DNA of 64,000 bases, taken from the NCBI GenBank assembly GCA_964016885.1, contig OZ024742.1, forward strand, positions 11,284,001 to 11,348,000. The letters are read 5' to 3'. The notes under the pieces are model-generated. The model ran no database searches and had not been told where the DNA came from. It worked only from the letters and a program-made list of their open reading frames with translations. Numbering within the stretch: the stretch's first letter is position 1; each line of letters opens with the position of its first letter. Of this stretch, positions 9,976-35,500 are shown piece by piece. Made by a program: the position numbers and the translations under genes. The DNA is from Eledone cirrhosa. Lineage: Eukaryota.

Positions 9976-10019
<44 letters not shown>

Positions 10020-10190
10020 AACCACCAAACCACCACCACCACCACCACCACCACCACTACAACTACTACTACTACTACTACTACAACCACCAAACCACCA
10101 CCACCACCACCATCACAACTACTACTACTACTACAACCACCAAACCACCACCACCACTACCACCACTACCACTACTACTACAACCACCCC
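9635..10190. repeat. Long compound (ACT)n/(ACC)n trinucleotide microsatellite
   Basis: About 550 bp of alternating ACT/ACC/ATT tracts; it produces the poly-Val ORF. Confidence 0.95.
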
Positions 10191-10294
10191 AAACACAATG
10201 TATATTTACGAGTACATTGTACTGTGACCACCACAACAAACAATCTAGATATATTCATACACCCCCAACTGAGTCTTCATATTACCCCCCCCCC

Positions 10295-10392
10295 GACCAC
10301 CACCGCCTCCACCACTTCCACTGCCACCACCAACACCAATACCACCATCACTACCACCAACACCACCATCATCATCATCTTCATCATCATTA
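10295..10392. repeat. (CAC/CAT)n microsatellite
   Basis: Direct inspection; it produces the poly-His ORF. Confidence 0.85.
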
Positions 10393-11006: not shown

Positions 11007-11134
11007 ACATACAATATACTACCCCACATGTAATATACTATAACTATATGATATACCATCACTTGCTCAACGACCGTTACGATTAGCAGGACATTGCTAA
11101 AGAAGTAAACAAGATATTATACACTAACTACTGT

Positions 11135-11540
11135 TGTAGGAACCAACCCACAGGAGTTGCAGTAGAAGAAGACTTGCTTAAACCTTCAACAATCAACTGT
11201 GAAACGTCACAAACCTCAGTAGGGAGTGTTTGGCAGGAGCAGTGAAAAATGGTGAATTGTTGAGGGAGTTTCTCAAGAATGTGAGATTGTTGTCATGATG
11301 ATGATCTAACTATCTATCTACCTATCTATCTACCTACCTATCTATGTACCTATCTGTGGGAACCAACTCATAGGAGACCAAGAGATGCAGTAGAGGAAGA
11401 CTTGCACGAACCTTCATCGATCAACTCTGAAATGTTACAAACCTCAGTAGGTAGTGTTTGGCAGGAGCAGTGGAAAGTAGTGAATTGTTGAGGGAGTGTG
11501 TAAGGAATGTTACAGTGTGGTCACAGTGATGGTGATAAAC
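11135..11540 (+). repeat. Tandem pair of a ~170-bp element separated by (TATC)n; the second copy runs into the satellite
   Basis: 11135-11310 and 11355-~11540 align throughout (ggaaccaac...gcagtaga.gaagacttgc...acaaacctcagtagg.agtgtttggcaggagcagtg...gtgaattgttgagggagt). Confidence 0.9.
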
Positions 11541-14500
11541 AACAGTCTGTAGAAAGATGACTATAGCAGTGCGGTCACAGTGATGGTGATAAACAACAGT
11601 CTGTAGAAAGATGGTTATTGCAGTGTGGTCACAGTGATGGTGATAAACAACAGTCTGTAGAAAGATGACGATTGCAGTGTGGTCACAGTGATGGTGATAA
11701 ACAAGTCTGTAGAAAGATGACGATTGCAGTGTGGTCACAGTGATGGTGATAAACAACAGTCTGTAGAAAGATGGCGATTGCAGTGTGGTTACAGTGATGG
11801 TGATAAACAACTCTGTAGAAAGATGACGATTGCAGTGTGGTCACAGTGATGGTGATAAACAACAGTCTGTAGAAAGATGACGATTGCAGTGTGGTCACAG
11901 TGATGGTGATAAACAACAGTCTGTAGAAAGATGACGATTGCAGTGTGGTCACAGTGATGGTGATAAACAAGTCTGTAGAAAGATGATGATTGCAGTGTGG
12001 TCACAGTGATGGTGATAAACAAGTCTGTAGAAAGATGACGATTGCAGTTTGGTCATAGTGATGGTGATAAACAACAGTCTGTAGAAAGATGAAGATTGCA
12101 GTGTGGTCACAGTGATGGTGATACACAAGTCTGTAGAAAGATGACGATTGCAGTGTGGTCACAGTGATGGTGATAAACAACAGTCTGTAGAAAGATAACT
12201 ATTGCTGTGTGGTCACAGTGATGGTGATAAACAACAGTCTGTAGAAAGATAACTATTGCTGTGTGGTCACAGTGATGGTGATAAACAACAGTCTGTAGAA
12301 AGATAACTATTGCAGTGTGGTCACAGTGATGGTGATAAACAACAGTCTGTAGAAAGATAACTATTGCTGTGTGGTCACAGTGATGGTGATAAACAACAGT
12401 CTGTAGAAAGATAACTATTGCTGTGTGGTCACAGTGATGGTGATAAACAACAGTCTGTAGAAAGATAACTATTGCAGTGTGGTCACAGTGATGGTGATAA
12501 ACAACAGTCTGTAGAAAGATAACTATTGCAGTGTGGTCACAGTGATGGTGATAAACAACAGTCTGTAGAAAGATAACTATTGCTGTGTGGTCACAGTGAT
12601 GGTGATAAACAAGTCTGTAGAAAGATGACTATTGCAGAGTGGTCACAGTGATGGTGATAAACAAAGTCTGTAGAAAGGTGACGATTGCAGTGTGGTCACA
12701 GTGATGGGGATAAACAACAGTCTGTAGAAAGATGACTATTGCAGTGTGGTCACAGTGATGGTGATAAACAACAGTCTGTAGAAAGCTGACTATTGCAGTG
12801 TCGTCACAGTGATGGTGATAAACAACAGTCTGTAGAAAGATGACTATTGCAGTGTGGTCACAGTGATGGTGATAAACAACAGTCTGTAGAAAGATGATGA
12901 TTGCAGTGTGGTCACAGTGATGGTGATAAACAAGTCTGTAGAAAGATGACGATTGCAGTGTGGTCACAGTGATGGTGATTATCAAGTCTGTAGAAAGATG
13001 ACGATTGCAGTGTGGTCACAGTGATGGTGATAAACAAGTATGTAGAAAGATGACGATTGCAGTGTGGTCACAGTGATGGTGATAAACAAGTCTGTAGAAA
13101 GATGACGATTACAGTGTGGTCACATTGATGGTGATAAACAACAGTCTGTAGAAAGATGGCGATTGCAGTGTGGTCACATTGATGGTGATAAACAACAGTC
13201 TGTAGAAAGATGACGATTGCAGTGTGGTCACAGTGATGGTGATAAACTAGTCTGTAGAAAGATGACGATTGCACTGTGGTCACAGTGATGGTGATAAACA
13301 ACAGTCTGTAGAAAGATGACGATTGCTGTGTGGTCACAGTGATGGTGATAAACAACAGTCTGTAGAAAGATGACTATTGCAGTGTGGTCACAGTGATGGT
13401 GATAAAGAACAGTCTGTAGAAAGATGACTATTGCAGTGTGGTCACAGTGATGGTGATAAAAAACAGTCTGTAGAAAGATGACAATTGCAGTGTGGTCACA
13501 GTGATGGTGATAAACAACAGTCTGTATAAAGCTGACTATTGCAGTGTCGTCACAGTGATGGTGATAAACAACAGTCTGTAGAAAGATGACTATTGCAGTG
13601 TGGTCACAGTGATGGTGATAAACAACAGTCTGTAGAAAGATGACGATTGCAGTGTGGTCACAGAGATGGTGATAAACTAGTCTGTAGAAAGATGGCGATT
13701 GCAGTGTGGTCACATTGATGGTGATAAAGAACAGTCTGTAGAAAGATGACGACTGCAGTGTGGTCACATTGATGGTGATAAACAACAGTCTGTAGAAAGA
13801 TGGCGATTGCAGTGTGGTCACAGTGATGGTGATAAACTAGTCTGTAGAAAGATGACGATTGCAGTGTGGTCACAGTGATGGTGATAAACAACAGAATGTA
13901 GAAAGATAACTATTGCTGTGTGGTCACAGTGATGGTGATAAACAAGTCTGTAGAAAGATGACGATTGCAGTGTGGTCACAGTGATGGTGATAAACAACAG
14001 TCTGTAGAAAGATGACTATTGCAGTGTGGTCACAGTGATGGTGATAAACAACAGTCTGTAGAAAGATGACGATTGCTGTGTGGTCACAGTGATGGTGATA
14101 AACAACAGTCTGTAGAATGATGACGATTGCAGTGTGGTCACAGTGATGGTGATAAACAACAGTCTGTAGAAAGATGACGATTGCTGTGTGGTCACAGTGA
14201 TGGTGATAAACAACAGTCTGTAGAATGATGACGATTGCAGTGTGGTCACAGTGATGGTGATAAACAACAGTCTGTAGAAAGATGACGATTGCTGTGTGGT
14301 CACAGTGATGGTGATAAACAACAGTCTGTAGAAAGATGGCGATTGCAGTGTGGTCACAGTGATGGTGATAAACAACAGAATGTAGAAAGATAACTATTGC
14401 TGTGTGGTCACAGTGATGGTGATAAACAAGTCTGTAGAAAGATGACGATTGCAGTGTGGTCACAGTGATGGTGATAAACAACAGTCTGTAGAAAGATGAC

Positions 14501-17500
14501 GATTGCTGTGTGGTCACAGGGATGGTGATAAACAACAGTCTGTAGAAAGATGACGATTGCTGTGTGGTCACAGTGATGGTGATAAACAACAGTCTGTAGA
14601 AAGATGACTATTGCAGTTTGGTCACAAAGATGGTGATAAACAACAGTCTGATGAAAGATGGCGATTGCAGTGTGGTCACAATGATGGTGATAAAAAACAG
14701 TCTGTAGAAATATGGAGATTGCAGTGTGGTCACAGTGATGGTGATAAACAAGTCTGTACAAAGATGGCGATTGCAGTGTGGTCACAGTGATGGTGATAAA
14801 CAAGTATGTAGAAAGATGACCTTTGCAGTGTGGTCACAGTGATAGTGATAAACAAGTCTGTAGAAAGATGACTTTTGCAGTGTGGTCACAGTGATGGTGA
14901 TAAACAAGTCTGTAGAAAGATGACGATTGCAGTGTGGTCACAGTGATGATGATAAACAAGTCTGTAGAAAGATGACGATTGCAGTGTGGTCACAGTGATG
15001 GTGATAAACAACAGTCTGTAGAAGGATGACGATTGCAGTGTGGTCACATTGATGGTGATAAACAACAGTCTGTAGAAAGATAACTATTGCTGTGTGGTCA
15101 CAGTGATGGTGATAAACAAGTCTGTAGAAAGATGACTATTGCAGAGTGGTCACAGTGATGGTGATAAACAAGTCTGTAGAAAGGTGACGATTGCAGTGTG
15201 GTCACAGTGATGGGGATAAACAACAGTCTGTAGAAAGATGACGATTGCAGTGTGGTCACAGTGATGGTGATAAACAACAGTCTGTAGAAAGCTGACTATT
15301 GCAGTGTCGTCACAGTGATGGTGATAAACAACAGTCTGTAGAAAGATGACTATTGCAGTGTGGTCACAGTGATGGTGATAAACAACAGTCTGTAGAAAGA
15401 TGACGATTGCAGTGTGGTCACAGTGATGGTGATAAACAAGTCTGTAGAAAGATGATGATTGCAGTGTGGTCACAGTGATGGTGATAAACAACAGTCTGTA
15501 GAAATATGACGATTGCTGTGTGGTCACAGTGATGGTGATAAACAACAGTCTGTAGAATGATGACGTTTGCAGTGTGGTCACAGTGATGGTGATAAACAAC
15601 AGTCTAACGAAAGATGACTATTGCAGTGTGGTCACAGTGATGGTGATAAACAAGTCTGTAGAAAGATGACTATTGCAGTGTGGTCACAGTGATGGTGATA
15701 AACAACAGTCTGTAGAAAGATGACGATTGCAGTGTGGTCACAGTGATGGTGATAAACAACAGTCTGTAAAAAGATGACTATTGCAGTGTGGTCACAGTGA
15801 TGGTGATAAACAACAGTCTGATGAAAGATGGCGATTGCAGTTTGGTCACAATGATGGTGATAAACAACAGTCTGATGAAAGATGGCGATTGCAGTGTGGT
15901 CACAATGATGGTGATAAAAAACAGTCTGTAGAAAGATGGCGATTGCAGTGTGGTCACAGTGATGGTGATAAACAAGTCTGTAGAAAGATGACGATTGCAG
16001 TGTGGTCACAGTGATGGTGATAAATAAAGTCTGTAGAAAGATGGCGATTGCAGTGTGGTCACAGTGATCGTGATAAACAACAGTCTGTAGAAAGATGACG
16101 ATTGCAGTGTGGTCACAGTGATGGTGATAAACAAGTATGTAGAAAGATGACGATTGCAGTGTGGTCACAGTGATGGTGATAAACAAGTCTGTAGAAAGAT
16201 GACGATTACAGTGTGGTCACATTGATGGTGATAAACAACAGTCTGTAGAAAGATGGCGATTGCAGTGTGGTCACATTGATGGTGATAAACAACAGTCTGT
16301 AGAAAGATGACGATTGCAGTGTGGTCACAGTGATGGTGATAAACTAGTCTGTAGAAAGATGACGATTGCACTGTGGTCACAGTGATGGTGATAAACAACA
16401 GTCTGTAGAAAGATGACGATTGCTGTGTGGTCACAGTGATGGTGATAAACAACAGTCTGTAGAAAGATGACTATTGCAGTGTGGTCACAGTGATGGTGAT
16501 AAAGAACAGTCTGTAGAAAGATGACTATTGCAGTGTGGTCACAGTGATGGTGATAAAAAACAGTCTGTAGAAAGATGACAATTGCAGTGTGGTCACAGTG
16601 ATGGTGATAAACAACAGTCTGTATAAAGCTGACTATTGCAGTGTCGTCACAGTGATGGTGATAAACAACAGTCTGTAGAAAGATGACTATTGCAGTGTGG
16701 TCACAGTGATGGTGATAAACAACAGTCTGTAGAAAGATGACGATTGCAGTGTGGTCACAGAGATGGTGATAAACTAGTCTGTAGAAAGATGGCGATTGCA
16801 GTGTGGTCACATTGATGGTGATAAACAACAGTCTGTAGAAAGATGACGACTGCAGTGTGGTCACATTGATGGTGATAAACAACAGTCTGTAGAAAGATGG
16901 CGATTGCAGTGTGGTCACAGTGATGGTGATAAACTAGTCTGTAGAAAGATGACGATTGCAGTGTGGTCACAGTGATGGTGATAAACAACAGAATGTAGAA
17001 AGATAACTATTGCTGTGTGGTCACAGTGATGGTGATAAACAAGTCTGTAGAAAGATGACGATTGCAGTGTGGTCACAGTGATGGTGATAAACAACAGTCT
17101 GTAGAAAGATGACTATTGCAGTGTGGTCACAGTGATGGTGATAAACAACAGTCTGTAGAAAGATGACGATTGCTGTGTGGTCACAGTGATGGTGATAAAC
17201 AACAGTCTGTAGAATGATGACGATTGCAGTGTGGTCACAGTGATGGTGATAAACAACAGTCTGTAGAAAGATGACGATTGCTGTGTGGTCACAGTGATGG
17301 TGATAAACAACAGTCTGTAGAATGATGACGATTGCAGTGTGGTCACAGTGATGGTGATAAACAACAGTCTGTAGAAAGATGACGATTGCTGTGTGGTCAC
17401 AGTGATGGTGATAAACAACAGTCTGTAGAAAGATGGCGATTGCAGTGTGGTCACAGTGATGGTGATAAACAACAGAATGTAGAAAGATAACTATTGCTGT

Positions 17501-20500
17501 GTGGTCACAGTGATGGTGATAAACAAGTCTGTAGAAAGATGACGATTGCAGTGTGGTCACAGTGATGGTGATAAACAACAGTCTGTAGAAAGATGACGAT
17601 TGCTGTGTGGTCACAGGGATGGTGATAAACAACAGTCTGTAGAAAGATGACGATTGCTGTGTGGTCACAGTGATGGTGATAAACAACAGTCTGTAGAAAG
17701 ATGACTATTGCAGTTTGGTCACAAAGATGGTGATAAACAACAGTCTGATGAAAGATGGCGATTGCAGTGTGGTCACAATGATGGTGATAAAAAACAGTCT
17801 GTAGAAATATGGAGATTGCAGTGTGGTCACAGTGATGGTGATAAACAAGTCTGTACAAAGATGGCGATTGCAGTGTGGTCACAGTGATGGTGATAAACAA
17901 GTATGTAGAAAGATGACCTTTGCAGTGTGGTCACAGTGATAGTGATAAACAAGTCTGTAGAAAGATGACTTTTGCAGTGTGGTCACAGTGATGGTGATAA
18001 ACAAGTCTGTAGAAAGATGACGATTGCAGTGTGGTCACAGTGATGATGATAAACAAGTCTGTAGAAAGATGACGATTGCAGTGTGGTCACAGTGATGGTG
18101 ATAAACAACAGTCTGTAGAAGGATGACGATTGCAGTGTGGTCACATTGATGGTGATAAACAACAGTCTGTAGAAAGATAACTATTGCTGTGTGGTCACAG
18201 TGATGGTGATAAACAAGTCTGTAGAAAGATGACTATTGCAGAGTGGTCACAGTGATGGTGATAAACAAGTCTGTAGAAAGGTGACGATTGCAGTGTGGTC
18301 ACAGTGATGGGGATAAACAACAGTCTGTAGAAAGATGACGATTGCAGTGTGGTCACAGTGATGGTGATAAACAACAGTCTGTAGAAAGCTGACTATTGCA
18401 GTGTCGTCACAGTGATGGTGATAAACAACAGTCTGTAGAAAGATGACTATTGCAGTGTGGTCACAGTGATGGTGATAAACAACAGTCTGTAGAAAGATGA
18501 CGATTGCAGTGTGGTCACAGTGATGGTGATAAACAAGTCTGTAGAAAGATGATGATTGCAGTGTGGTCACAGTGATGGTGATAAACAACAGTCTGTAGAA
18601 ATATGACGATTGCTGTGTGGTCACAGTGATGGTGATAAACAACAGTCTGTAGAATGATGACGTTTGCAGTGTGGTCACAGTGATGGTGATAAACAACAGT
18701 CTAACGAAAGATGACTATTGCAGTGTGGTCACAGTGATGGTGATAAACAAGTCTGTAGAAAGATGACTATTGCAGTGTGGTCACAGTGATGGTGATAAAC
18801 AACAGTCTGTAGAAAGATGACGATTGCAGTGTGGTCACAGTGATGGTGATAAACAACAGTCTGTAAAAAGATGACTATTGCAGTGTGGTCACAGTGATGG
18901 TGATAAACAACAGTCTGATGAAAGATGGCGATTGCAGTTTGGTCACAATGATGGTGATAAACAACAGTCTGATGAAAGATGGCGATTGCAGTGTGGTCAC
19001 AATGATGGTGATAAAAAACAGTCTGTAGAAAGATGGCGATTGCAGTGTGGTCACAGTGATGGTGATAAACAAGTCTGTAGAAAGATGACGATTGCAGTGT
19101 GGTCACAGTGATGGTGATAAATAAAGTCTGTAGAAAGATGGCGATTGCAGTGTGGTCACAGTGATCGTGATAAACAACAGTCTGTAGAAAGATGATGATT
19201 GCAGTGTGGTCATAGTGATGGTGACAAACAACAGTCTGTAGAAAGAGTGCGATTGCAGTGTGGTCACAGTGATGCTGATAAACAACAGTCTGTAGAAAGA
19301 TGATGATTGCAGTGTGTTCATAGTGATGGTGATAAACAACAGTCTGTAGAAAGATGGCGATTGCAGTGTAGTCACAATGATGGTGATAAACAACAGAATG
19401 TATAAAGATGACTATTGCAGTGTGGCCACAGTTATGGTGATAAACAAGTCTGTAGAAAGATGGCGATTGCAGTGTGGTCACAGTGATGGTCATAAACAAG
19501 TCTGTAGAAAGATGACTATTGCAGTGTGGTCACAGTGATGGTGATAAACAAGTCTGTAGAAAGATGACAATTGCAGTGTGGTCACATTGATGGTGATAAA
19601 CAACAGTCTGTAGAAAGATAACTATTGCTGTGTGGTCACAGTGATGGTGATAAACAAGTCTGTAGAAAGATGACTATTGCAGAGTGGTCACAGTGATGGT
19701 GATAAACAAGTCTGTAGAAAGGTGACGATTGCAGTGTGGTCACAGTGATGGGGATAAACAACAGTCTGTAGAAAGATGACGATTGCAGTGTGGTCACAGT
19801 GATGGTGATAAACAACAGTCTGTAGAAAGATGACGATTGCAGTGTGGTCACAGTGATGGTGATAAACAACAGTCTGTAGAAAGCTGACTATTGCAGTGTC
19901 GTCACAGTGATGGTGATAAAAAACAGTCTGTAGAAAGATGACTATTGCAGTGTGGTCACAGTGATGGTGATAAACAACAGTCTGTAGAAAGATGACGATT
20001 GCAGTGTGGTGACAGTGATGGTGATAAACATGTCTGTAGAAAGATGACGATTGCAGTTTGGTCATAGTGATGGTGATAAACAACAGTCTGTATAAAGATG
20101 AAGATTGCAGTGTGGTCACAGAGATGGTGATAAACAAGTCTGTAGAAAGATGACGATTGCAGTGTGGTCACATTGATGGTGATAAACAACAGTCTGTAGA
20201 AAGATGGCGATTGCAGTGTGGTCACAGTGATGGTGATAAACAACAGAATGTAGAAAGATAACTATTGCTGTGTGGTCACAGTGATGGTGATAAACAAGTC
20301 TGTAGAAAGATGACTATTGCAGTGTGGTTATAGTGATGGTGATAAACAAGTCTGTAGAAAGATGGCGATTGCAGTGTCGTCACAGTGATGGTGATAAACA
20401 AGTCTATAGAAAGGTGACGATTGCAGTGTGGTCACAGTGATGGGGATAAACAACAGTCTGTAGAAAGATGACTATTGCAGTGTGGTCACAGTGATGGTGA

Positions 20501-23500
20501 TAAACAACAGTCTGTAGAAAGATGACGATTCCAGTGTTGTCACAGTGATGGTGATAAACAACAGTCTGTAGAAAGACGACTATTGCAGTGTGGTCACAGT
20601 GATGGTGATAACAACAGTCTGTAGAAAGATGGCGATTGCAGTGTGGTCACAGTGATGGTGATAAACAACAGTCTGTAGAAAGCTGACTATTGCAGTGTCG
20701 TCACAGTGATGGTGATAAACAAAAGTCTGTAGAAAGATGACTATTGCAGTGTGGTCACAGTGATGGTGATAAACAACAGTCTGTAGAAAGATGATGATTG
20801 CAGTGTGGTCACAGTGATGCTGATAAACAAGTCTGTAGAAAGATGACGATTGCAGTGTGGTCACATTGATGGTGATAAACAACAGTCTGTAGAAAGATGG
20901 CGATTGCAGTGTGGTCACAGTGATGGTGATAAACAACAGAATGTAGAAAGATAACTATTGCTGTGTGGTCACAGTGATGGTGATAAACAAGTCTGTAGAA
21001 AGATGACTATTGCAGTGTGGTTATAGTGATGGTGATAAACAAGTCTGTAGAAAGATGGCGATTGCAGTGTCGTCACAGTGATGGTGATAAACAAGTCTAT
21101 AGAAAGATGGAGATTGCAGTGTGGTCACAGTGATGGTGATAAACAACAGTCTGTAGAAAGATGGCGATTGCAGTGTGGTCACAGAGATGGTGATAAACAA
21201 CATTCTGTAGATAGATAACGATTGCAGTGTGGTCACAGTGATGGTGATAAACAAGTCTGTAGAAAGATGGCGATCGCAGTGTGGTCTCAGTGATGGTGAT
21301 AAAGAAGTCTGTAGGAAGATGGTGATTGCAGTGTGATCTCAGTGATGGTGATAACAACAGTCGATAGAAGATCGCGATTGCAGTGTGGTCACAGTGATGG
21401 TGATAAACAACAGTCTGTAGAAAGATGACGATTGCAGTGTGGTCACAGTGATGGTGATAAACAACAGTCTGTAGAAAGATGGCGATTGCAGAGTGGTCAC
21501 AGTGATGGTCATAAACAACAGTCTGTAGAAAGATGGCGATTGCAGTGTGGTCACAGTGATGGTGATAAACAACTCTGTAGAAAGATGACGATTGCAGTGT
21601 GGTCACAATGATGGTGATAAACAACAGTCTGTAGAAAGCTGACTATTGCAGTGTGGTCACAGTGATGGTGATAAAAAACAGTCTGTAGAAAGATGACTAT
21701 TGCAGTGTGGTCACAGTGATGGTGATAAACAACAGTCTGTAGAAAGGTGACGATTGCAGTGTGGTCACAGTGATGGTGATAAACAAGTCTGTAGAAAGAT
21801 GACTATTGCAGTGTGGTCACAGTGATGGTGATAAACAAGTCTGTAGAAAGATGACGAATGCAGTGTGGTCACATTGATGGTGATAAACAACAGTCTGTAG
21901 AAAGATAACTATTGCGGTGTGGTCACAGTGATGGTGATAAACAAGTCTGTAGAAAGATGACTATTGCAGAGTGGTCACAGTGATGGTGATAAACAAGTCT
22001 GTAGAGAGGTGACGATTGCAGTGTGGTCACAGTGATGGGGATAAACAACAGTCTGTAGAAAGATGACTATTGCAGTGTGGTCACAGTGATGGTGATAAAC
22101 AACAGTCTGTAGAAAGATGACGATTGCAGTGTCGTCACAGTGATGGTGATAAACAACAGTCTGTAGAAAGATGACTATTGCAGTGTGGTCACAGTGATGG
22201 TGATAAACAACAGTCTGTAGAAAGATGATGATTGCAGTGTGGTCACAGTGATGGTGATAAACAAGTCTGTAGAAAGATGAAGATTGCAGTGTGGTCACAG
22301 TGATGGTGATAAACAACAGTCTGTAGAAAGATGACGATTGCAGTGTGGTCACAGTGATGGTGATAAACAATATAATGTAGAAAGATGACGATTGCAGTGT
22401 GGTCACAGTGATGGTGATAAACAAGTCTGTAGAAAGATGACGATTGCAGTGTGGTCACAGTGATGGTGATAAACAATAGAATGTAGAAAGATGACGATTG
22501 CAGTGTGGTCACAGTGATGGTGATAAACAACAGTCTGTAGAAAGATGACGATTGCAGTGTGGTCACAGTGATGGTGATAAACAATATAATGTAGAAAGAT
22601 GACGATTGCAGTGTGGTCACAGTGATGGTGATAAACAAGTCTGTAGAAAGATGACGATTGCAGTGTGGTCACAGTGATGGTGATAAACAAGTATGTAGAA
22701 AGATGACGATTGCAGTGTGGTCACAGTGATGAAGATAAACAACAGTCTGTAGAAAGATGACTATTGCAGTGTGGTCACAGTGATGGTGATAAACAACAGT
22801 CTGTAGAAAGATGACGATTGCAGTGTCGTCACAGTGATGGTGATAAACAATAGAATGTAGAAAGATGACGATTGCAGTGTGGTCACAGTGATGGTGATAA
22901 ACAAGTCTGTAGAAAGATGACGATTGCAGTGTGGTCACAGTGATGGTGATAAACAACAGTCTGATGAAAGATGGCGATTGAAGTGTGGTCACAATGATGG
23001 TGATAAAAAACAGTCTGTAGAAATATGGCGATTGCAGTGTGGTCACAGTGATGGTGATAAACAAGTCTGTACAAAGATGGCGATTGCAGTGTGGTCACAG
23101 TGATGGTGATAAACAAGTATGTAGAAAGATGACCTTTGCAGTGTGGTCACAGTGATGGTGATAAACAACAGTCTGTAGAAGGATGACGATTGCAGTGTGG
23201 TCACAGTGATGGTGATAAACAACAGTCTGTAGAGAGATGGCGATTGCAGTGTGGTCACAGTGGTGGTGATAAACAAGTCTGTAGAAAGATGGCGATTGCA
23301 GTGTGGTCACAGTGATAGTGATAAACAACATCTGTAGAAAAATGCCGATTGCAATGTGGTCACAGTGATGGGGATAAACAAGTCTGTAGAAAGATGGCGA
23401 TTGCAGTGTCGTCACAGTGATGGTGATAAACAAGTCTATAGAAAGATGGCGATTGCAGTGTTTTCACAGTGATGGTGATAAACAACATTCTGTAGATAGA

Positions 23501-26500
23501 TAACGATTGCAGTGTGGTCACAGTGATGGTGATAAACAAGTCTGTAGAAAGATGACTATTGCAGTGTGGTTATAGTGATGGTGATAAACAAGTCTGTAGA
23601 AAGATGGCGATTGCAGTGTCGTCACAGTGATGGTGATAAACAAGTCTATAGAAAGATGGAGATTGCAGTGTGGTCACAGTGATGGTGATAAACAACAGTC
23701 TGTAGAAAGATGGCGATTGCAGTGTGGTCACAGAGATGGTGATAAACAACATTCTGTAGATAGATAACGATTGCAGTGTGGTCACAGTGATGGTGATAAA
23801 CAAGTCTGTAGAAAGATGGCGATCGCAGTGTGGTCTCAGTGATGGTGATAAAGAAGTCTGTAGAAAGATGGTGATTGCAGTGTGATCTCAGTGATGGTGA
23901 TAACAACAGTCGATAGAAGATCGCGATTGCAGTGTGGTCACAGTGATGGTGATAAACAACAGTCTGTAGAAAGATGACGATTGCAGTGTGGTCACAGTGA
24001 TGGTGATAAACAACAGTCTGTAGAAAGATGGCGATTGCAGAGTGGTCACAGTGATGGTCATAAACAACAGTCTGTAGAAAGATGGCGATTGCAGTGTGGT
24101 CACAGTGATGGTGATAAACAACTCTGTAGAAAGATGACGATTGCAGTGTGGTAACAATGATGGTGATAAACAACAGTCTGTAGAAAGCTGACTATTGCAG
24201 TGTGGTCACAGTGATGGTGATAAAAAACAGTCTGTAGAAAGATGACTATTGCAGTGTGGTCACAGTGATGGTGATAAACAACAGTCTGTAGAAAGATGAC
24301 GATTGCAGTGTGGTCACAGTGATGGTGATAAACAAGTCTGTAGAAAGATGACTATTGCAGTGTGGTCACAGTGATGGTGATAAACAAGTCTGTAGAAAGA
24401 TGACGAATGCAGTGTGGTCACATTGATGGTGATAAACAACAGTCTGTAGAAAGATAACTATTGCGGTGTGGTCACAGTGATGGTGATAAACAAGTCTGTA
24501 GAAAGATGACTATTGCAGAGTGGTCACAGTGATGGTGATAAACAAGTCTGTAGAGAGGTGACGATTGCAGTGTGGTCACAGTGATGGGGATAAACAACAG
24601 TCTGTAGAAAGATGACTATTGCAGTGTGGTCACAGTGATGGTGATAAACAACAGTCTGTAGAAAGATGACGATTGCAGTGTCGTCACAGTGATGGTGATA
24701 AACAACAGTCTGTAGAAAGATGACTATTGCAGTGTGGTCACAGTGATGGTGATAAACAACAGTCTGTAGAAAGATGATGATTGCAGTGTGGTCACAGTGA
24801 TGGTGATAAACAAGTCTGTAGAAAGATGAAGATTGCAGTGTGGTCACAGTGATGGTGATAAACAACAGTCTGTAGAAAGATGACGATTGCAGTGTGGTCA
24901 CAGTGATGGTGATAAACAATATAATGTAGAAAGATGACGATTGCAGTGTGGTCACAGTGATGGTGATAAACAAGTCTGTAGAAAGATGACGATTGCAGTG
25001 TGGTCACAGTGATGGTGATAAACAATAGAATGTAGAAAGATGACGATTGCAGTGTGGTCACAGTGATGGTGATAAACAAGTCTGTAGAAAGATGACGATT
25101 GCAGTGTGGTCACAGTGATGGTGATAAACAAGTATGTAGAAAGATGACGATTGCAGTGTGGTCACAGTGATGGTGATAAACAACAGTCTGTAGAAAGATG
25201 ACTATTGCAGTGTGGTCACAGTGATGGTGATAAACAACAGTCTGTAGAAAGATGACGATTGCAGTGTCGTCACAGTGATGGTGATAAACAATAGAATGTA
25301 GAAAGATGACGATTGCAGTGTGGTCACAGTGATGGTGATAAACAAGTCTGTAGAAAGATGACGATTGCAGTGTGGTCACAGTGATGGTGATAAACAACAG
25401 TCTGATGAAAGATGGCGATTGAAGTGTGGTCACAATGATGGTGATAAAAAACAGTCTGTAGAAATATGGCGATTGCAGTGTGGTCACAGTGATGGTGATA
25501 AACAAGTCTGTACAAAGATGGCGATTGCAGTGTGGTCACAGTGATGGTGATAAACAAGTATGTAGAAAGATGACCTTTGCAGTGTGGTCACAGTGATGGT
25601 GATAAACAACAGTCTGTAGAGAGATGGCGATTGCAGTGTGGTCACAGTGGTGGTGATAAACAAGTCTGTATAAAGATGGCGATTGCAGTGTGGTCACAGT
25701 GATAGTGATAAACAACATCTGTAGAAAAATGCCGATTGCAATGTGGTCACAGTGATGGGGATAAACAAGTCTGTAGAAAGATGGCGATTGCAGTGTCGTC
25801 ACAGTGATGGTGATAAACAAGTCTATAGAAAGATGGCGATTGCAGTGTTTTCACAGTGATGGTGATAAACAACATTCTGTAGATAGATAACGATTGCAGT
25901 GTGGTCACAGTGATGGTGATAAACAAGTCTGTAGAAAGATGGCGATTGCAGTGTGGTCTCAGTGATGGTGATAAACAACAGTCTGTAGAAGATGGCGATA
26001 GCAGTGTGGTCACAGTGATGGTGATAAACAACAGTCTGTAGAAAGATGAAGATTGCAGTGTGTTCACAGTAATGGTGATAAACAACAGTCTGTAGAAAGA
26101 TGGCGATTGCAGTGTGGTTACAGTGATGGTGATAAACAACAGTCTGTAGAAAGATGACGATTGCAGTGTGGTCACAGTGATGGTGATAAACAACAGTCTG
26201 TAGAAAGATGACTATTGCAGTGTGGTCACAGTGATGGTGATAAACAAGTCTGTAGAATGATGACTATTGCAGTGTGGTCACAGTGATGGTGATAAACAAC
26301 AGAATGTAGAAAGATGACTATTGCAGTGTGGTCACAGTGATGGTGATAAACAAGTCTGTAGAAAGATGACGATTGCGGTGTGGTCACAGTGATGGTGATA
26401 AACAAAGTCTGTAGAAAGATGGCGATTGCAGTGTGGTCACAGTGATCGTGATAAACAACAGTCTGTAGAAAGATGATGATTGCAGTGTGGTCATAGTGAT

Positions 26501-29500
26501 GGTGATAAACAACAGTCTGTAGAAAGATGGCGATTGCAGTGTGGTCACAGTGATGGTGATAAACAACAGTCTGTAGAAAGATGATGATTGCAGTGTGTTC
26601 ATAGTGATGGTGATAAACAACAGTCTGTAGAAAGATGGCGATTGCAGTGTAGTCACAATGATGGTGATAAACAACAGAATGTATAAAGATGACTATTGCA
26701 GTGTGGCCACAGTGATGGTGATAAACAACAGTCTGTAGAAAGATGACGATTGCAGTTTGGTCATAGTGATGGTGATTAACAACAGTCTGTAGAAAGATGA
26801 CGATTGCAGTGTGGTCACAGTGATAGTGATAAACAAGTCTGTAGAAAGATGACTATTGCAGTGTGGTCACAGTGATGGTGATAAACAAGTCTGTAGAAAG
26901 ATGACGATTGCAGTGTGGTCACAGTGATGGTGATAAACAAGTCTGTAGAAAGATGACGATTGCAGTGTGGTCACAGTGATGGTGATAAACAACAGTCTGT
27001 AGAAGGATGACGATTGCAGTGTGGTCACATTGATGGTGATAAACAACAGTCTGTAGAAAGATAACTATTGCTGTGTGGTCACAGTGATGGTGATAAACAA
27101 GTCTGTAGAAAGATGACTATTGCAGAGTGGTCACAGTGATGGTGATAAACAAGTCTGTAGAAAGGTGACGATTGCAGTGTGGTCACAGTGATGGGGATAA
27201 ACAACAGTCTGTAGAAAGATGACGATTGCAGTGTGGTCACAGTGATGGTAATAAACAACAGTCTGTAGAAAGCTGACTATTGCAGTGTCGTCACAGTGAT
27301 GGTGATAAACAACAGTCTGTAGAAAGATGACTATTGCAGTGTGGTCACAGTGATGGTGATAAACAACAGTCTGTAGAAAGATGACGATTGCAGTGTGGTC
27401 ACAGTGATGGTGATAAACAAGTCTGTAGAAAGATGATGATTGCAGTGTGGTCACAGTGATGGTGATAAACAACAGTCTGTAGAAAGATGACGATTGCTGT
27501 GTGGTCACAGTGATGGTGATAAACAACAGTCTGTAGAATGATGACGTTTGCAGTGTGGTCACAATGATGGTGATAAACAACAGTCTAACGAAAGATGACT
27601 ATTGCAGTGTGGTCACAGTGATGTTGATAAACAAGTCTGTAGAAAGATGACAATTGCAGTGTGGTCACAGTGATGGTGATAAACAACAGAATGTAGAAAG
27701 ATAACTATTGTTGTGTGGTCACAGTGATGGTGATAAACAAGTCTGTAGAAAGATGACGATTGCAGTGTGGTCACATTGATGGTGATAAACAACAGTCTGT
27801 AGAAAGATGGCGATTGCAGTGTGGTCACAGTGATGGTGATAAATAACAGAATGTAGAAAGATAACTATTGCTGTGTGGTCACAGTGATAGTGATAAACAA
27901 GTCTGTAGAAAGATGACTATTGCAGTGTGGTCATAGTGATGGTGATAAACAAGTCTGTAGAAAGATGACGATTGCAGTGTGGTCACAGTGATGGTGATAA
28001 ACAACAGTCTGTAGAAAGATGACGATTGCTGTGTGGTCACAGTGATGGTGATAAACAACAGTCTGTAGAATGATGACGTTTGCAGTGTGGTCACAGTGCT
28101 GGTGATAAACAACAGTCTAACGAAAGATGACTATTGCAGTGTGGTCACAGTGATGGTGATAAACAAGTCTGTAGAAAGATGACTATTGCAGTGTGGTCAC
28201 AGTGATGGTGATAAACAACAGTCTGTAGAAAGATGACGATTGCAGTGTGGTCACAGTGATGGTGATAAACAACAGTCTGTAGAAAGATGACTATTGCAGT
28301 GTGGTCACAGTGATGGTGATAAACAACAGTCTGATGAAAGATGGCGATTGCAGTTTGGTCACAATGATGGTGATAAACAACAGTCTGATGAAAGATGGCG
28401 ATTGCAGTGTGGTCACAATGATGGTGATAAAAAACAGTCTGTAGAAAGATGGCGATTGCAGTGTGGTCACAGTGATGGTGATAAACAAGTCTGTAGAAAG
28501 ATGACGATTGCAGTGTGGTCACAGTGATGGTGATAAACAAAGTCTGTAGAAAGATGGCGATTGCAGTGTGGTCACAGTGATCGTGATAAACAACAGTCTG
28601 TAGAAAGAGTGCGATTGCAGTGTGGTCACAGTGATGCTGATAAACAACAGTCTGTAGAAAGATGATGATTGCAGTGTGTTCATAGTGATGGTGATAAACA
28701 ACAGTCTGTAGAAAGATGGCGATTGCAGTGTAGTCACAATGATGGTGATAAACAACAGAATGTATAAAGATGACTATTGCAGTGTGGCCACAGTTATGGT
28801 GATAAACAAGTCTGTAGAAAGATGGCGATTGCAGTGTGGTCACAGTGATGGTGATAAACAAGTCTGTAGAAAGATGACTATTGCAGTGTGGTCACAGTGA
28901 TGGTGATAAACAAGTCTGTAGAAAGATGACGATTGCAGTGTGGTCACATTGATGGTGATAAACAACAGTCTGTAGAAAGATAACTATTGCTGTGTGGTCA
29001 CAGTGATGGTGATAAAGAAGTCTGTAGAAAGATGACTATTGCAGAGTGGTCACAGTGATGGTGATAAACAATAGAATGTAGAAAGATGACGATTGCAGTG
29101 TGGTCACAGTGATGGTGATAAACAAGTCTGTAGAAAGATGACGATTGCAGTGTGGTCACAGTGATGGTGGTAAACAATAGAATGTAGAAAGATGACGATT
29201 GCAGTGTGGTCACAGTGATGGTGATAAACAAGTCTGTAGAAAGATGACGATTGCAGTGTGGTCACAGTGATGGTGATAAACAAGTATGTAGAAAGATGAC
29301 GATTGCAGTGTGGTCACAGTGATGGTGATAAACAACAGTCTGATGAAAGATGGCGATTGCAGTGTGGTCACAATGATGGTGATAAAAAACAGTCTGTAGA
29401 AATATGGCGATTGCAGTGTGGTGACAGTGATGGTGATAAACAAGTCTGTACAAAGATGGCGATTGCAGTGTGGTCACAGTGATGGTGATGAACAAGTATG

Positions 29501-32500
29501 TAGAAAGATGACCTTTGCAGTGTGGTCACAGTGATGGTGATAAACAACAGTCTGTAGAAGGATGACGATTGCAGTGTGGTCACAGTGATGGTGATAAACA
29601 ACAGTCTGTAGAGAGATGGCGATTGCAGTGTGGTCACAGTGGTGGTGATAAACAAGTCTGTAGAAAGATGGCGATTGCAGTGTGGTCACACTGATAGTGA
29701 TAAACAACATCTGTAGAAAAATGCCGATTGCAGTGTGGTCACAGTGATGGGGATAAACAAGTCTGTAGAAAGATGGCGATTGCAGTGTCGTCACAGTGAT
29801 GGTGATAAACAAGTCTATAGAAAGATGGCGATTGCAGTGTTTTCACAGTGATGGTGATAAACAACATTCTGTAGATAGATAACGATTGCAGTGTGGTCAC
29901 AGTGATGGTGATAAACAAGTCTGTAGAAAGATGGCGATTGCAGTGTGGTCTCAGTGATGGTGATAAACAACAGTCTGTAGAAGATGGCGATTGCAGTGTG
30001 GTCACAGTGATGGTGATAAACAACAGTCTGTAGAAAGATGAAGATTGCAGTGTGTTCACAGTAATGGTGATAAACAACAGTCTGTAGATAGATGACGATT
30101 GCAGTGTGGTTACAGTGATGGTGATAAACAACAGTCTGTAGAAAGATGACGATTGCAGTGTGGTCACAGTGATGGTGATAAACAAGTCTGTAGAAAGATG
30201 ACGATTGCAGTGTGGTCACAGTGATGGTGATAAACAAGTATGTAGAAAGATGACGATTGCAGTGTGGTCACAGTGATGGGGATAAACAACAGTCTGTAGA
30301 AAGATGACTATTGCAGTGTGGTCACAGTGATGGTGATAAACAACAGTCTGTAGAAAGATGACGATTGCAGTGTCGTCACAGTGATGGTGATAAACAATAG
30401 AATGTAGAAAGATGACGATTGCAGTGTGGTCACAGTGATGGTGATAAACAAGTCTGTAGAAAGATGACGATTGCAGTGTGGTCACAGTGATGGTGATAAA
30501 CAATAGAATGTAGAAAGATGACGATTGCAGTGTGGTCACAGTGATGGTGATAAACAAGTCTGTAGAAAGATGACGATTGCAGTGTGGTCACAGTGATGGT
30601 GATAAACAACAGTCTGATGAAAGATGGCGATTGCAGTGTGGTCACAATGATGGTGATAAAAAACAGTCTGTAGAAATATGGCGATTGCAGTGTGGTCACA
30701 GTGATGGTGATAAACAAGTCTGTACAAAGATGGCGATTGCAGTGTGGTCACAGTGATGGTGATAAACAAGTATGTAGAAAGATGACCTTTGCAGTGTGGT
30801 CACAGTGATGGTGATAAACAACAGTCTGTAGAAGGATGACGATTGCAGTGTGGTCACAGTGATGGTGATAAACAACAGTCTGTAGAGAGATGGCGATTGC
30901 AATGTGGTCACAGTGGTGGTGATAAACAAGTCTGTAGAAAGATGGCGATTGCAGTGTGGTCACAGTGATAGTGATAAACAACATCTGTAGAAAAATGCCG
31001 ATTGCAGTGTGGTCACAGTGATGGGGATAAACAAGTCTGTAGAAAGATGGCGATTGCAGTGTCGTCACAGTGATGGTGATAAACAAGTCTATAGAAAGAT
31101 GGCGATTGCAGTGTTTTCACAGTGATGGTGATAAACAACATTCTGTAGATAGATAACGATTGCAGTGTGGTCACAGTGATGGTGATAAACAAGTCTGTAG
31201 AAAGATGGCGATTGCAGTGTGGTCTCAGTGATGGTGATAAACAACAGTCTGTAGAAGATGGCGATTGCAGTGTGGTCACAGTGATGGTGATAAACAACAG
31301 TCTGTAGAAAGATGAAGATTGCAGTGTGTTCACAGTAATGGTGATAAACAACAGTCTGTAGATAGATGACGATTGCAGTGTGGTTACAGTGATGGTGATA
31401 AACAACAGTCTGTAGAAAGATGACGATTGCAGTGTGGTCACAGTGATGGTGATAAACAACAGTCTGTAGAAAGATGACTATTGCAGTGTGGTCACAGTGA
31501 TGGTGATAAACAAGTCTGTAGAATGATGACTATTGCAGTGTGGTCACAGTGATGGTGATAAACAACAGAATGTAGAAAGATGACTATTGCAGTGTGGCCA
31601 CAGTGATGGTGATAAACAAGTCTGTAGAAAGATGACGATTGCAGTGTGGTCACAGTGATGGTGATAAACAAAGTCTGTAGAAAGATGGCGATTGCAGTGT
31701 GGTCACAGTGATCGTGATAAACAACAGTCTGTAGAAAGATGATGATTGCAGTGTGGTCATAGTGATGGTGATAAACAACAGTCTGTAGAAAGATGGCGAT
31801 TGCAGTGTGGTCACAGTGATGGTGATAAACAACAGTCTGTAGAAAGATGATGATTGCAGTGTGTTCATAGTGATGGTGATAAACAACAGTCTGTAGAAAG
31901 ATGGCGATTGCAGTGTAGTCACAATGATGGTGATAAACAACAGAATGTATAAAGATGACTATTGCAGTGTGGCCACAGTGATGGTGATAAACAACAGTCT
32001 GATGAAAGATGGCGATTGCAGTGTGGTCACAATGATGGTGATAAAAAACAGTCTGTAGAAAGATGGCGATTGCAGTGTGGTCACAGTGATGGTGATAAAC
32101 AAGTCTGTAGAAAGATGACGATTGCAGTGTGGTCACAGTGATGGTGATAAACAAAGTCTGTAGAAAGATGGCGATTGCAGTGTGGTCACAGTGATCGTGA
32201 TAAACAACAGTCTGTAGAAAAAGTGCGATTGCAGTGTGGTCACAGTGATGCTGATAAACAACAGTCTGTAGAAAGATGATGATTGCAGTGTGTTCATAGT
32301 GATGGTGATAAACAACAGTCTGTAGAAAGATGGCGATTGCAGTGTAGTCACAATGATGGTGATAAACAACAGAATGTATAAAGATGACTATTGCAGTGTG
32401 GCCACAGTTATGGTGATAAACAAGTCTGTAGAAAGATGGCGATTGCAGTGTGGTCACAGTGATGGTGATAAACAAGTCTGTAGAAAGATGACTATTGCAG

Positions 32501-35500
32501 TGTGGTCACAGTGATGGTGATAAACAAGTCTGTAGAAAGATGACGATTGCCGTGTGGTCACATTGATGGTGATAAACAACAGTCTGTAGAAAGATAACTA
32601 TTGCTGTGTGGTCACAGTGATGGTGATAAACAAGTCTGTAGAAAGATGACTATTGCAGAGTGGTCACAGTGATGGTGATAAACAATAGAATGTAGAAAGA
32701 TGACGATTGCAGTGTGGTCACAGTGATGGTGATAAACAATAGAATGTAGAAAGATGACGATTGCAGTGTGGCCACAGTTATGGTGATAAACAAGTCTGTA
32801 GAAAGATGGCGATTGCAGTGTGGTCACAGTGATGGTGATAAACAAGTCTGTAGAAAGATGACGATTGCAGTGTGGTCACAGTGATGGTGATAAACAAGTA
32901 TGTAGAAAGATGACGATTGCAGTGTGGTCACAGTGATGGGGATAAACAACAGTCTGTAGAAAGATGACTATTGCAGTGTGGTCACAGTGATGGTGATAAA
33001 CAACAGTCTGTAGAAAGATGACGATTGCAGTGTCGTCACAGTGATGGTGATAAACAATAGAATGTAGAAAGATGACGATTGTAGTGTGGTCACAGTGATG
33101 GTGATAAACAAGTCTGTAGAAAGATGACGATTGCAGTGTGGTCACAGTGATGGTGATAAACAATAGAATGTAGAAAGATGACGATTGCAGTGTGGTCACA
33201 GTGATGGTGATAAACAAGTCTGTAGAAAGACAACGATTGCAGTGTGGTCACAGTGATGGTGGTAAACAATAGAATGTAGAAAGATGACGATTGCAGTGTG
33301 GTCACAGTGATGGTGATAAACAAGTCTGTAGAAAGATGACGATTGCAGTGTGGTCACAGTGATGGTGATAAACAAGTATGTAGAAAGATGACGATTGCAG
33401 TGTGGTCACAGTGATGGTGATAAACAACAGTCTGATGAAAGATGGCGATTGCAGTGTGGTCACAATGATGGTGATAAAAAACAGTCTGTAGAAATATGGC
33501 GATTGCAGTGTGGTCACAGTGATGGTGATAAACAAGTCTGTACAAAGATGGCGATTGCAGTGTGGTCACAGTGATGCTGATGAACAAGTATGTAGAAAGA
33601 TGACCTTTGCAGTGTGGTCACAGTGATGGTGATAAACAACAGTCTGTAGAAGGATGACGATTGCAGTGTGGTCACAGTGATGGTGATAAACAACAGTCTG
33701 TAGAGAGATGGCGATTGCAGTGTGGTCACAGTGGTGGTGATAAACAAGTCTGTAGAAAGATGGCGATTGCAGTGTGGTCACAGTGATAGTGATAAACAAC
33801 ATCTGTGGAAAAATGCCGATTGCAGTGTGGTCACAGTGATGGGGATAAACAAGTCTGTAGAAAGATGGCGATTGCAGTGTCGTCACAGTGATGGTGATAA
33901 ACAAGTCTATAGAAAGATGGCGATTGCAGTGTTTTCACAGTGATGGTGATAAACAACATTCTGTAGATAGATAACGATTGCAGTGTGGTCACAGTGATGG
34001 TGATAAACAAGTCTGTAGAAAGATGGCGATTGCAGTGTGGTCTCAGTGATGGTGATAAACAACAGTCTGTAGAAGATGGCGATTGCAGTGTGGTCACAGT
34101 GATGGTGATAAACAACAGTCTGTAGAAAGATGACGATTGCAGTGTGGTCACAGTGATGGTGATAAACAACAGTCTGTAGAAGATGGCGATTGCAGTGTAG
34201 TCACAGTGATGGTGATAAACAACAGTCTGCAGAAAGATGAAGATTGCAGTGTGTTCACAGTAATGGTGATAAACAACAGTCTGTAGAAAATGGCGATTGC
34301 AGTGTGGTTACAGTGATGGTGATAAACAACAGTCTGTAGAAAGATGACGATTGCAGTGTGGTCACAGTGATGGTGATAAACAACAGTCTGTAGAAAGATG
34401 ACTATTGCAGTGTGGTCACAGTGATGGTGATAAACAAGTCTGTAGAATGATGACTATTGCAGTGTGGTCACAGTGATGGTGATAAACAACAGAATGTAGA
34501 AAGATGACTATTGCAGTGTGGTCACAGTGATGGTGATAAACAAGTCTGTAGAAAGATGACGATTGCAGTGTGGTCACAGTGATGGTGATAAACAAAGTCT
34601 GTAGAAAGATGGCGATTGCAGTGTGGTCACAGTGATCGTGATAAACAACAGTCTGTAGAAGGATGATGATTGCAGTGTGGTCATAGTGATGGTGATAAAC
34701 AACAGTCTGTAGAAAGATGGCGATTGCAGTGTAGTCACAATGATGGTGATAAACAACAGAATGTATAAAGATGACTATTGCAGTGTGGCCACAGTTATGG
34801 TGATAAACAAGTCTGTAGAAAGATGGCGATTGCAGTGTGGTCACAGTGATGGTGATAAACAAGTCTGTAGAAAGATGACTATTGCAGTGTGGTCACAGTG
34901 ATGGTGATAAACAAGTCTGTAGAAAGATGACGATTGCAGTGTGATCACATTGATGGTGATAAACAACAGTCTGTAGAAAGATGACTATTGCAGTGTGGTC
35001 ACAGTGATGGTGATAAACAAGTCTGTAGAAAGATGACGATTGCAGTGTGATCACATTGATGGTGATAAACAACAGTCTGTAGAAAGATGACTATTGCAGA
35101 GTGGTCACAGTGATGGTGATAGCAATAGAATGTAGAAAGATGACGATTGCAGTGTGGTCACAGTGATGGTGATAAACAAGTCTGTAGAAAAATGACGATT
35201 GCAGTGTGGTCACAGTGATGGTGATAAACAATAGAATGTAGAAAGATGACGATTGCAGTGTGGTCACAGTGATGGTGATAAACAAGTCTGTAGAAAGATG
35301 ACGATTGCAGTGTGGTCACAGTGATGGTGATAAACAAGTATGTAGAAAGATGACGATTGCAGTGTGGTCACAGTGATGGGGATAAACAACAGTCTGTAGA
35401 AAGATGACTATTGCAGTGTGGTCACAGTGATGGTGATAAACAACAGTCTGTAGAAAGATGACGATTGCAGTGTCGTCACAGTGATGGTGATAAACAATAG

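What the first reader, a model, noticed from the sequence alone, without database searches (positions are those of the whole stretch)
11135..11560. Possible birthplace of the satellite: the array grows from the 3' end of a duplicated element whose sibling is unamplified
Seen: copy 1 ends gaatgt-gaga-ttgttgtca---tgatgatgatctaac and stops at (TATC)n. Copy 2 ends gaatgt-taca-gtgtggtca-cag-tgatggtgataaac, which is the first satellite monomer. Homology between the copies therefore continues across the array boundary, and the preceding agtgtgtaaggaatg loosely resembles the other half of the monomer (agtctgtagaaagatg). Inference: a pre-amplification ancestor is preserved 220 bp upstream of a >52-kb array, a rarely observed record of satellite origin.
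Basis: partly seen in the sequence, partly recalled or inferred. Interest (0 to 1): 0.75.

Follow-up and report, generated by a model that had tools for sequence, protein, structure and literature searches.

The report
Satellite grown from duplicated LINE tail
A 99,000-base run of a 54-base repeat begins inside the tail of a dead, locally duplicated jumping gene (likely an RTE-type LINE) and likely grew there on the spot, a known way for satellite DNA to arise that is well recorded here but not new in kind.

Summary
The two copies are about 80% alike, and their homology runs into the first monomer.

The 170-bp element is not unique. It is the coding 3' end plus (ATG)n tail of a dispersed endonuclease/reverse-transcriptase LINE, likely RTE-type, with at least 298-370 candidate copies. 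Copies 1 and 2 are local sisters.

The array is 99 kb with 1,861 units. All forward exact matches of two monomer motifs lie in it. The only other site is a young 5-unit insertion fused to a SINE on C1, without the leader. Birth in place is therefore likely (0.85).

Copy 1 is a sibling, not the ancestor: it matches the monomer's tail half poorly (39th of 45). The array's far end, however, resembles copy 1's tail best of 44 copies (p 0.002-0.02, post hoc, not read-confirmed).

Such events are common: 9 of 39 sampled family loci carry tandem 3'-end pieces. This scan noted RTE-born satellites many times before in this genome.

The parts
11059..11306 (+). Copy 1: 5'-truncated 3' end of an RTE-like LINE (last ~80 codons of the ORF, broken by stops, then stop codon and (ATG)n tail)
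   Evidence: tblastn of full-length endonuclease+RT proteins, E 4e-13 to 2e-6, ends at their C-terminus; family alignment
11307..11354 (+). (CTAT/CTAC)n spacer; likely the start of copy 2, expanded from the LINE's own CTAACTAC motif (inferred)
   Evidence: The spacer starts with CTAACTA, as does copy 1's own sequence just 5' of 11135; 0 of 42 family copies have that 7-mer there
11355..11536 (+). Copy 2: local tandem duplicate of the last ~180 bp of the LINE copy; its end is the first satellite half-monomer
   Evidence: 14 shared derived changes with copy 1, against at most 9 and 5 with any of 42 other copies; diagnostic 20-mer occurs only twice in the genome; clade 100/96
11513..11536 (+). LINE-derived half of the monomer: last codons (W-S-Q), stop codon and (ATG)n-type tail
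   Evidence: Frame translation; tblastn of P0001 reaches 11520; family tails
11537..11566 (+). Other half of the monomer: likely a short filler plus a decayed third copy of the LINE tail, or else plain flank DNA
   Evidence: Not significant against copy 2 alone. Far-end unit matches copy 1's tail best of 44 under four further scorings, with 7-70 of 2988 null windows as high
11513..64000 (+). 54/52-bp satellite array; continues beyond the window to G000:C3:11,394,601 (99.1 kb, 1,861 units, one orientation, uninterrupted)
   Evidence: monomers differ 3.8% from their consensus; internal block duplications of 24-40 kb
11041..11060 (+). Possible decayed left target-site duplication of copy 1 (weak; competes with the spacer reading)
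   Evidence: 17 of 21 columns match 11307-11326; no null test was run and the sequence is low-complexity

Best explanation
The 99-kb, 54-bp satellite starts inside the tail of a dead, locally duplicated LINE 3' end (likely RTE clade) and likely arose at this spot by a short tandem duplication that was later amplified about 1,860-fold. Step 1 (shown): a 5'-truncated LINE 3' end lies here. Step 2 (shown): its last ~190 bp are present twice as sisters, about 18% diverged. Step 3 (inferred, about 0.55): a still shorter tail piece of about 49 bp was also duplicated early, and its decayed remains survive at the far end of the array. Step 4 (inferred): an out-of-register exchange at a short imperfect match (TTACAGT on the left, TTGCGGT on the right) fixed the 54-bp unit. 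Step 5 (inferred from repeated blocks): unequal exchange or replication slippage in blocks of kilobases to tens of kilobases built the array, much later than step 2 or with continued homogenisation. Step 6 (inferred): five units later reached C1 fused to a young SINE, likely by template switching during retrotransposition. No function is indicated; the array is likely neutral.
For: Leader is a LINE C-terminus. The array is contiguous and in register with the LINE tail. Single locus: the 24-mer has 1031 forward matches in the genome and 1031 in the array; the 19-mer has 613 and 613; the only reverse matches are 5 and 1, on C1. The C1 piece lacks the leader, sits between 178-bp direct repeats and is joined to a SINE 99.5% identical to another copy, so it looks like a recipient. 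Sister status of copies 1 and 2. Far-end relic: best match is copy 1 of 44 tails; the flank continues as a decayed monomer, 26 of 40 columns, reached by 3 of 500 flank windows and 1 of 400 shuffles when anchored with a 5-base skip. Parallel cases in the same family: L065 (58 bp x 12, the last 58 bp of the element) and L009 (190 bp x 5.6).
Against: Only 21-24 of 54 bases are securely LINE-derived. The far-end evidence was noticed by eye and then tested; p ranges 0.002-0.023 with scoring. The unanchored test of the flank is not significant (144 of 2794 windows; 122 of 2000 shuffles), and the in-register anchored test is weaker (8 of 500; 12 of 400). The right junction and the next ~230 bp had no depth in the X1 and X2 contigs; the tool warns that a hole proves nothing, but the junction rests on the assembly alone. 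Exact-pattern counts miss diverged or unassembled arrays. One monomer contig at depth 3.6 occurs in a run under another organism label (X4) and is unexplained. No sister-species empty site was available.
Confidence: 0.85

Rival explanations
1. Born here, but as a simple junction unit: 24 bp of LINE tail plus about 30 bp of ordinary flank, duplicated at a 7-base imperfect match. The far-end likeness to copy 1 is chance. This is a variant within the best explanation, about 0.4 of it.
For: The second half alone does not match the family consensus, copy 1 or copy 2 (807, 3699 and 1094 of 4922 windows). The right flank is unique in the genome.
Against: The far-end unit ranks copy 1 first of 44 under four further scorings, and 0 of 1860 ordinary monomer frames score as high against copy 1. 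L065 shows the same family making a tail-only unit.
Confidence: 0.35
2. Secondary insertion: the satellite arose elsewhere, probably from another copy of this LINE, and recombined into copy 2 through the shared 21-bp tail.
For: Three dispersed copies (L065, L071, L075) differ at only one base from the monomer's tail half, so many tails could act as landing sites. Earlier unchecked notes propose repeat units moving between LINE copies in this genome. A monomer is present in X4.
Against: No donor array in the assembly. Copy 2 is the best match to the whole monomer among 45 tails (score 55, next 45), though partly by construction because it contains the first unit. The far end points to the local lineage.
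Confidence: 0.1
3. One reading: copy 1 is the preserved pre-amplification ancestor of the monomer.
For: Copy 1 is the closest relative of copy 2 and the best match to the far-end unit.
Against: Copy 1 ranks 33rd of 45 for the whole monomer and 39th of 45 for its tail half. It carries 21 private changes against 9 in copy 2, so it is the more altered sister, not a frozen ancestor.
Confidence: 0.05

Closest known systems
SINE-derived satellites (sSat) of squamate reptiles, PMC10702118 (parts 1, 3 and 4 of 5 read)
   Same: A tandem array of part of a retroposon with a longer terminal unit that keeps the element's sequence; up to about 1000 units; arises independently at many loci; tends to distal chromosome regions (here 11.3 Mb into a 379-Mb contig).
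   Different: The parent here is a LINE coding end plus tail, not a SINE. The unit is 54 bp (theirs 70-290). The large array is at one locus. Only about half of the unit is clearly element-derived.
LINE-derived satellites: cetacean common satellite (L1 3' part), chicken HinfI (CR1 3' UTR and part of ORF2), PROsat and Pvc20 (L1 ORF2), as listed in PMC9659126 (passages)
   Same: The monomer holds 3'-terminal LINE sequence.
   Different: The passages seen report monomer-to-LINE similarity. Here the array is still joined to its parent copy and has a sister copy beside it. The parent is RTE-like.
CRM1TR and CRM4TR of maize, PMC3648361 (abstract and outline)
   Same: Locus-restricted tandem repeats born repeatedly from similar regions of a retrotransposon and homogenised locally.
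   Different: Those come from LTR elements (LTR and UTR) in a centromeric setting.
RTE-clade non-LTR retrotransposons (RTE-1, SR3; PMC1291365 passages; RTE-2_OV, PMC9115989 passages)
   Same: One ORF of about 1000 aa with endonuclease and RT in the nearest full-length relatives; very short 3' end made of an AT-rich trimer repeat.
   Different: No RT tree was built here, so the clade is assigned by architecture only. No full-length copy from this genome was recovered.

Membership tests
RTE-clade LINE (parent element) | Single ORF of about 1000-1100 aa with AP-type endonuclease and RT | tested here: met
   Met in relatives: P0003, P0005 and P0010 (1007-1061 aa) carry PF03372 and PF00078, and their C-termini match copies 1 and 2. 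Locus L090 of this genome matches P0005 from residue 597 to 905.
RTE-clade LINE (parent element) | Very short 3' UTR of AT-rich tri- to pentamer repeats | tested here: met
   Most of the 42 family tails end in (ATG)n directly at the stop codon; feature as stated in PMC1291365.
RTE-clade LINE (parent element) | RT phylogeny groups with named RTE elements | not tested
   No named reference RTs were fetched; the homologues carry no clade names.
RTE-clade LINE (parent element) | Dispersed, 5'-truncated copies | tested here: met
   298 and 370 first-look candidates, 40 scored each, on many contigs; shared 3' end with variable 5' extent.
Retroposon-derived satellite (sSat-like anatomy) | Monomer homologous to part of the element | tested here: met
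   Tail half: 0-1 of 2000 shuffles; one base from three dispersed copies. Second half inconclusive.
Retroposon-derived satellite (sSat-like anatomy) | Longer terminal unit continuous with the element | tested here: met
   Copy 2 runs in register into the first monomer; junction present in an X1 contig.
Satellite DNA | Long homogeneous head-to-tail array | tested here: met
   1,861 units over 99 kb, 3.8% from consensus.
Satellite DNA | Heterochromatic location or chromatin state | not testable with these tools
   No chromatin data; position is 3% along contig C3.
Chimeric retro-insertion (C1 piece) | Tail-bearing retroposon at the 3' end, foreign 5' part, flanking target duplication | tested here: inconclusive
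   All three features are present, but the duplication is 178 bp while six other SINE copies show 10-21 bp, so DNA-repair capture is not excluded.

The most novel reading that the evidence does not exclude
One locus records a satellite's whole early life in order. A LINE end was re-duplicated in ever shorter pieces (about 250, 190 and 49 bp). A hybrid of the last two pieces expanded 1,860-fold while decayed pre-amplification units stayed at both ends, 99 kb apart. A transcript of the array was then captured by a SINE during retrotransposition, giving the satellite's first and only outpost on another chromosome.
Probability: 0.3. Interest if true: 0.6.

Novelty: new member of a known kind. Interest (0 to 1): 0.36.

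Why it matters
How a satellite's first duplication happens is usually erased by later homogenisation. Here the parent copy, an unamplified sister, probably the old far edge, and one dispersed offshoot can all be read, so the order of events can be tested in sister species. The kind of event is published, and it recurs within this LINE family and, by unchecked notes of this scan, across this genome. Its value is that of one well-resolved example in a series. The most distinctive piece is the SINE-satellite chimera on C1, which would show RNA-mediated first dispersal if confirmed.

Tried and rejected
- Coding function of the array: 52- and 53-bp units break any frame (641 and 87 of 1860 spacings), and the plus strand holds the LINE's own stop codon.
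- Hairpin-driven origin: no unusual folding of the monomer dimer or of the junction (z 0.04, 1.05 and 0.08).
- Copies 1 and 2 as members of an older dispersed subfamily: a diagnostic 24-mer with 2 mismatches finds only one further hit, which is not in a LINE copy.
- A target duplication spanning copy 1 to the array's far end: none found.
- An exact source in the array for the C1 piece: best match 96.8%; its thrice-repeated variant has 0 exact matches among 1860 monomers.
- A nearby SINE as the C1 partner: the closest near the array is 93.5%, against 99.5% at an unrelated locus.
- Older monomer layers at the array edges: no clear gradient in 20 bins; only the share of unique monomers rises in the last bin (0.24).
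- Expression: no RNA holder listed, so no evidence either way.
- RAD-seq runs X5-X7 showed no depth on the array or its junctions and are uninformative.
- Pfam on a C-terminal piece found nothing; a sub-threshold DUF6451 hit lay upstream.
- Two paper searches for long RTE target duplications returned 0 papers.
- Rows dropped: of 46 family loci fetched, 7 were the same place fetched twice, leaving 39 loci and 42 copies.

Full report
**1. Observation.** Copy 1 and copy 2 start 220 bp apart and align at 79.7% over 182 columns. A (CTAT/CTAC)n stretch separates them, and a 54-bp array starts at 11513. The alignment crosses the array boundary. Copy 1's last 31 bases against 11511-11545 are matched by 0 and 1 of 2000 shuffles under two scorings, and by 15 and 26 of 2000 against a full dimer. 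The second resemblance (agtgtgtaaggaatg to the other monomer half) is not significant without the six junction bases (1094 of 4922 flank windows) and is borderline with them (8-9 of 600 windows; 12-28 of 400 shuffles). A short-read contig spans 11453-11542 without differences; that run may be the assembly's own sample.

**2. The element is a LINE end.** Searches of the genome with copy 1 and copy 2 gave 298 and 370 candidates, 40 scored each, at 75-83% identity on many contigs. The fetched copies share one 3' end with an (ATG)n tail and extend 5' by different lengths. A stop-free piece of one copy hits a protein at 69% identity. That protein leads to 41 longer proteins, 40 annotated with RT, among them ORFs of about 1000-1100 aa with endonuclease plus RT. 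Their C-termini match 11059-11295 (E down to 4e-13) and 11383-11520. The monomer's first half is therefore the last codons, the stop codon and the tail of the LINE. A single ORF of this size and a trimer-repeat 3' end fit the RTE clade as described in PMC1291365 (passages). I built no RT tree, so the clade is likely, not shown. The host looks octopus-like from recalled SINE motifs and earlier notes; this was not tested.

**3. Copies 1 and 2 are local sisters.** Against the majority of 42 other copies they share 14 changes. Copy 1 has 21 private changes and copy 2 has 9. The most shared with any other copy is 9 for copy 1 and 5 for copy 2. A shared 20-mer occurs exactly twice in 3.0 Gb; allowing two mismatches in a 24-mer adds one hit that is not in a LINE. 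A tree of 44 rows joins them at 100/96, though the bootstrap had not fully settled. The spacer begins with a 7-mer that copy 1 also has just upstream of 11135 and that 0 of 42 other copies have, so copy 2 likely starts at 11307 with an expanded microsatellite. A decayed target duplication (17 of 21 columns, no null test) is a weaker alternative.

**4. Copy 1 is not the ancestor.** It ranks 39th of 45 for the monomer's tail half and 33rd of 45 for the whole monomer. L065, L071 and L075 differ from the tail half at only one base. Copy 1 is the more altered sister.

**5. The array and its far end.** Adjoining stretches show an uninterrupted single-orientation array of 1,861 units ending at G000:C3:11,394,601, 99.1 kb in all. 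Monomers differ by 3.8% from their consensus, and long blocks recur at 24-40 kb. The array is thus much younger, or more homogenised, than the 18% split between the copies. The right flank is unique. The last partial unit plus flank aligns in register with the LINE tail. It matches copy 1 best: 7 of 2988 flank windows and 5 of 3000 shuffles score as high; copy 1 comes first among all tails; and it is first of 44 under four further scorings, with 7-70 of 2988 null windows as high and 0 of 1860 ordinary monomer frames. The flank also continues as a decayed monomer for 26 of 40 columns: anchored with a 5-base skip, 3 of 500 windows and 1 of 400 shuffles reach it; in register, 8 of 500 and 12 of 400; unanchored, 144 of 2794, which is not significant. 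I saw this by eye before testing it, and the contigs of runs X1 and X2 have no depth over this junction. I put the relic reading at about 0.55.

**6. Distribution.** A 24-mer has 1031 forward and 5 reverse exact matches in the genome, and all 1031 are in this array. A 19-mer of the other half gives 613 and 1, with 613 in the array. The reverse matches are one site on C1: 5.4 units with no LINE leader, fused 5' of a SINE that is 99.5% identical to another copy, between 178-bp direct repeats. This reads as a young recipient site. Six other SINE copies show duplications of 10-21 bp, so 178 bp is atypical; PMC1291365 states that L1 duplications reach several hundred bases. Template switching onto a satellite transcript is my preferred reading, and repair capture is not excluded. 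Exact patterns miss diverged or unassembled arrays. One monomer contig in a run under another organism label (X4, depth 3.6) is unexplained.

**7. How common.** Of 39 distinct family loci (46 fetched, 7 duplicates dropped; these are top-scoring hits, not a random sample), 9 carry extra pieces of the 3' 180 bp nearby; some may be separate insertions. L065 has the last 58 bp x 12, L009 has 190 bp x 5.6, and a 51-bp internal unit is amplified at three loci. Unchecked notes of this scan report many other RTE-born arrays in this genome, several with preserved junctions; none was near this place. I did not check them. They were a prompt for the secondary-insertion rival and agree with the direct count above.

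**8. Mechanism.** Shown: a truncated LINE end, its local duplicate, an array continuous with the duplicate's tail, confinement to one large locus, and block-wise growth. Inferred: an early short tail duplication; fixing of the 54-bp unit by an out-of-register exchange at a 7-base imperfect match; amplification by unequal exchange or slippage; and later export of five units with a SINE. Microhomology-based repair and non-allelic recombination are the mechanisms proposed in PMC12628747 (passages). There is no sign of coding capacity or unusual folding. Confidence in birth in place is 0.85; secondary insertion 0.10; copy 1 as the literal ancestor 0.05.

**9. Known relatives and novelty.** The anatomy equals that of squamate SINE-derived satellites, which have a longer terminal unit continuous with the element (PMC10702118, parts 1, 3 and 4 of 5 read). 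LINE 3'-derived satellites are listed in PMC9659126 (passages), and locus-restricted retrotransposon-born repeats in PMC3648361 (abstract). RTE activity in octopus and microsatellite 3' ends appear in PMC9115989 (passages), and RTE tails and short target duplications in PMC13295347 (passages). Six paper searches listed no title or abstract start describing this array or an RTE-tail satellite in an octopus; the library is incomplete and no supplements were read, and repeat annotations there (for example PMC13282606, listing only) may include it. Verdict: a new member of a known kind, interest 0.36. The most novel reading, a complete staged record including RNA-mediated first dispersal, has probability 0.3 and would merit 0.6.

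Noticed in passing
G000:C1:280,955,658-280,956,510 (L038, minus strand): 5.4 satellite units fused 5' of a nearly full-length young SINE, between 178-bp direct repeats; a 13-base restart of the target follows the SINE tail. It is the only other site of the satellite in the assembly.
   Followed up: partly
L065:1587-2285 and L065:1-1270: One copy of the same LINE carries two separate arrays: its last 58 bp x 12, and an internal 51-bp coding piece x 25 or more.
   Followed up: partly
L020:1851-2911, L084:1020-1276, L065:1-1270: The same 51-bp internal unit, bounded by a 5-base direct match in the single-copy form, is amplified at three separate loci.
   Followed up: partly
L008, L009, L013, L069, L086, L088: Second pieces of the LINE end often start at positions 4-5 of the 181-bp core, the same point as copy 2, and several follow an (AT)n or (CTAT)n filler. 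This suggests a breakpoint hot spot.
   Followed up: partly
window 900-2460: Broken frames of 201 and 132 aa that I recall as resembling a Penelope-like reverse transcriptase element; Pfam gave no hit, so the name is recalled only.
   Followed up: partly
window 9653-10374: A (CTA/CCA)n microsatellite field of about 700 bp, 750 bp upstream of copy 1.
   Followed up: no
run X4 (organism B), laid on window 11537-11613: One 84-bp contig at depth 3.6 holds a consensus-type monomer without the leader. It may be a relative, a mixed sample or contamination.
   Followed up: partly
P0001: The nearest protein to the family's C-terminus is 69% identical and named from Penaeus chinensis, high for a host that is likely a mollusc (host recalled from SINE motifs and earlier notes, not tested). 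It may be a horizontal-transfer lead.
   Followed up: no
window 25,700-60,000 and beyond: Blocks of identical monomer order recur at lags of 24.5, 27.2, 31.0 and 40.5 kb, with a 3.1-kb spacing near the left end.
   Followed up: partly
G000:C3:11,600,001 and 11,700,001 (L029, L030): Other unrelated short-period tandem arrays lie 0.2-0.3 Mb downstream, so the region is repeat-rich.
   Followed up: no
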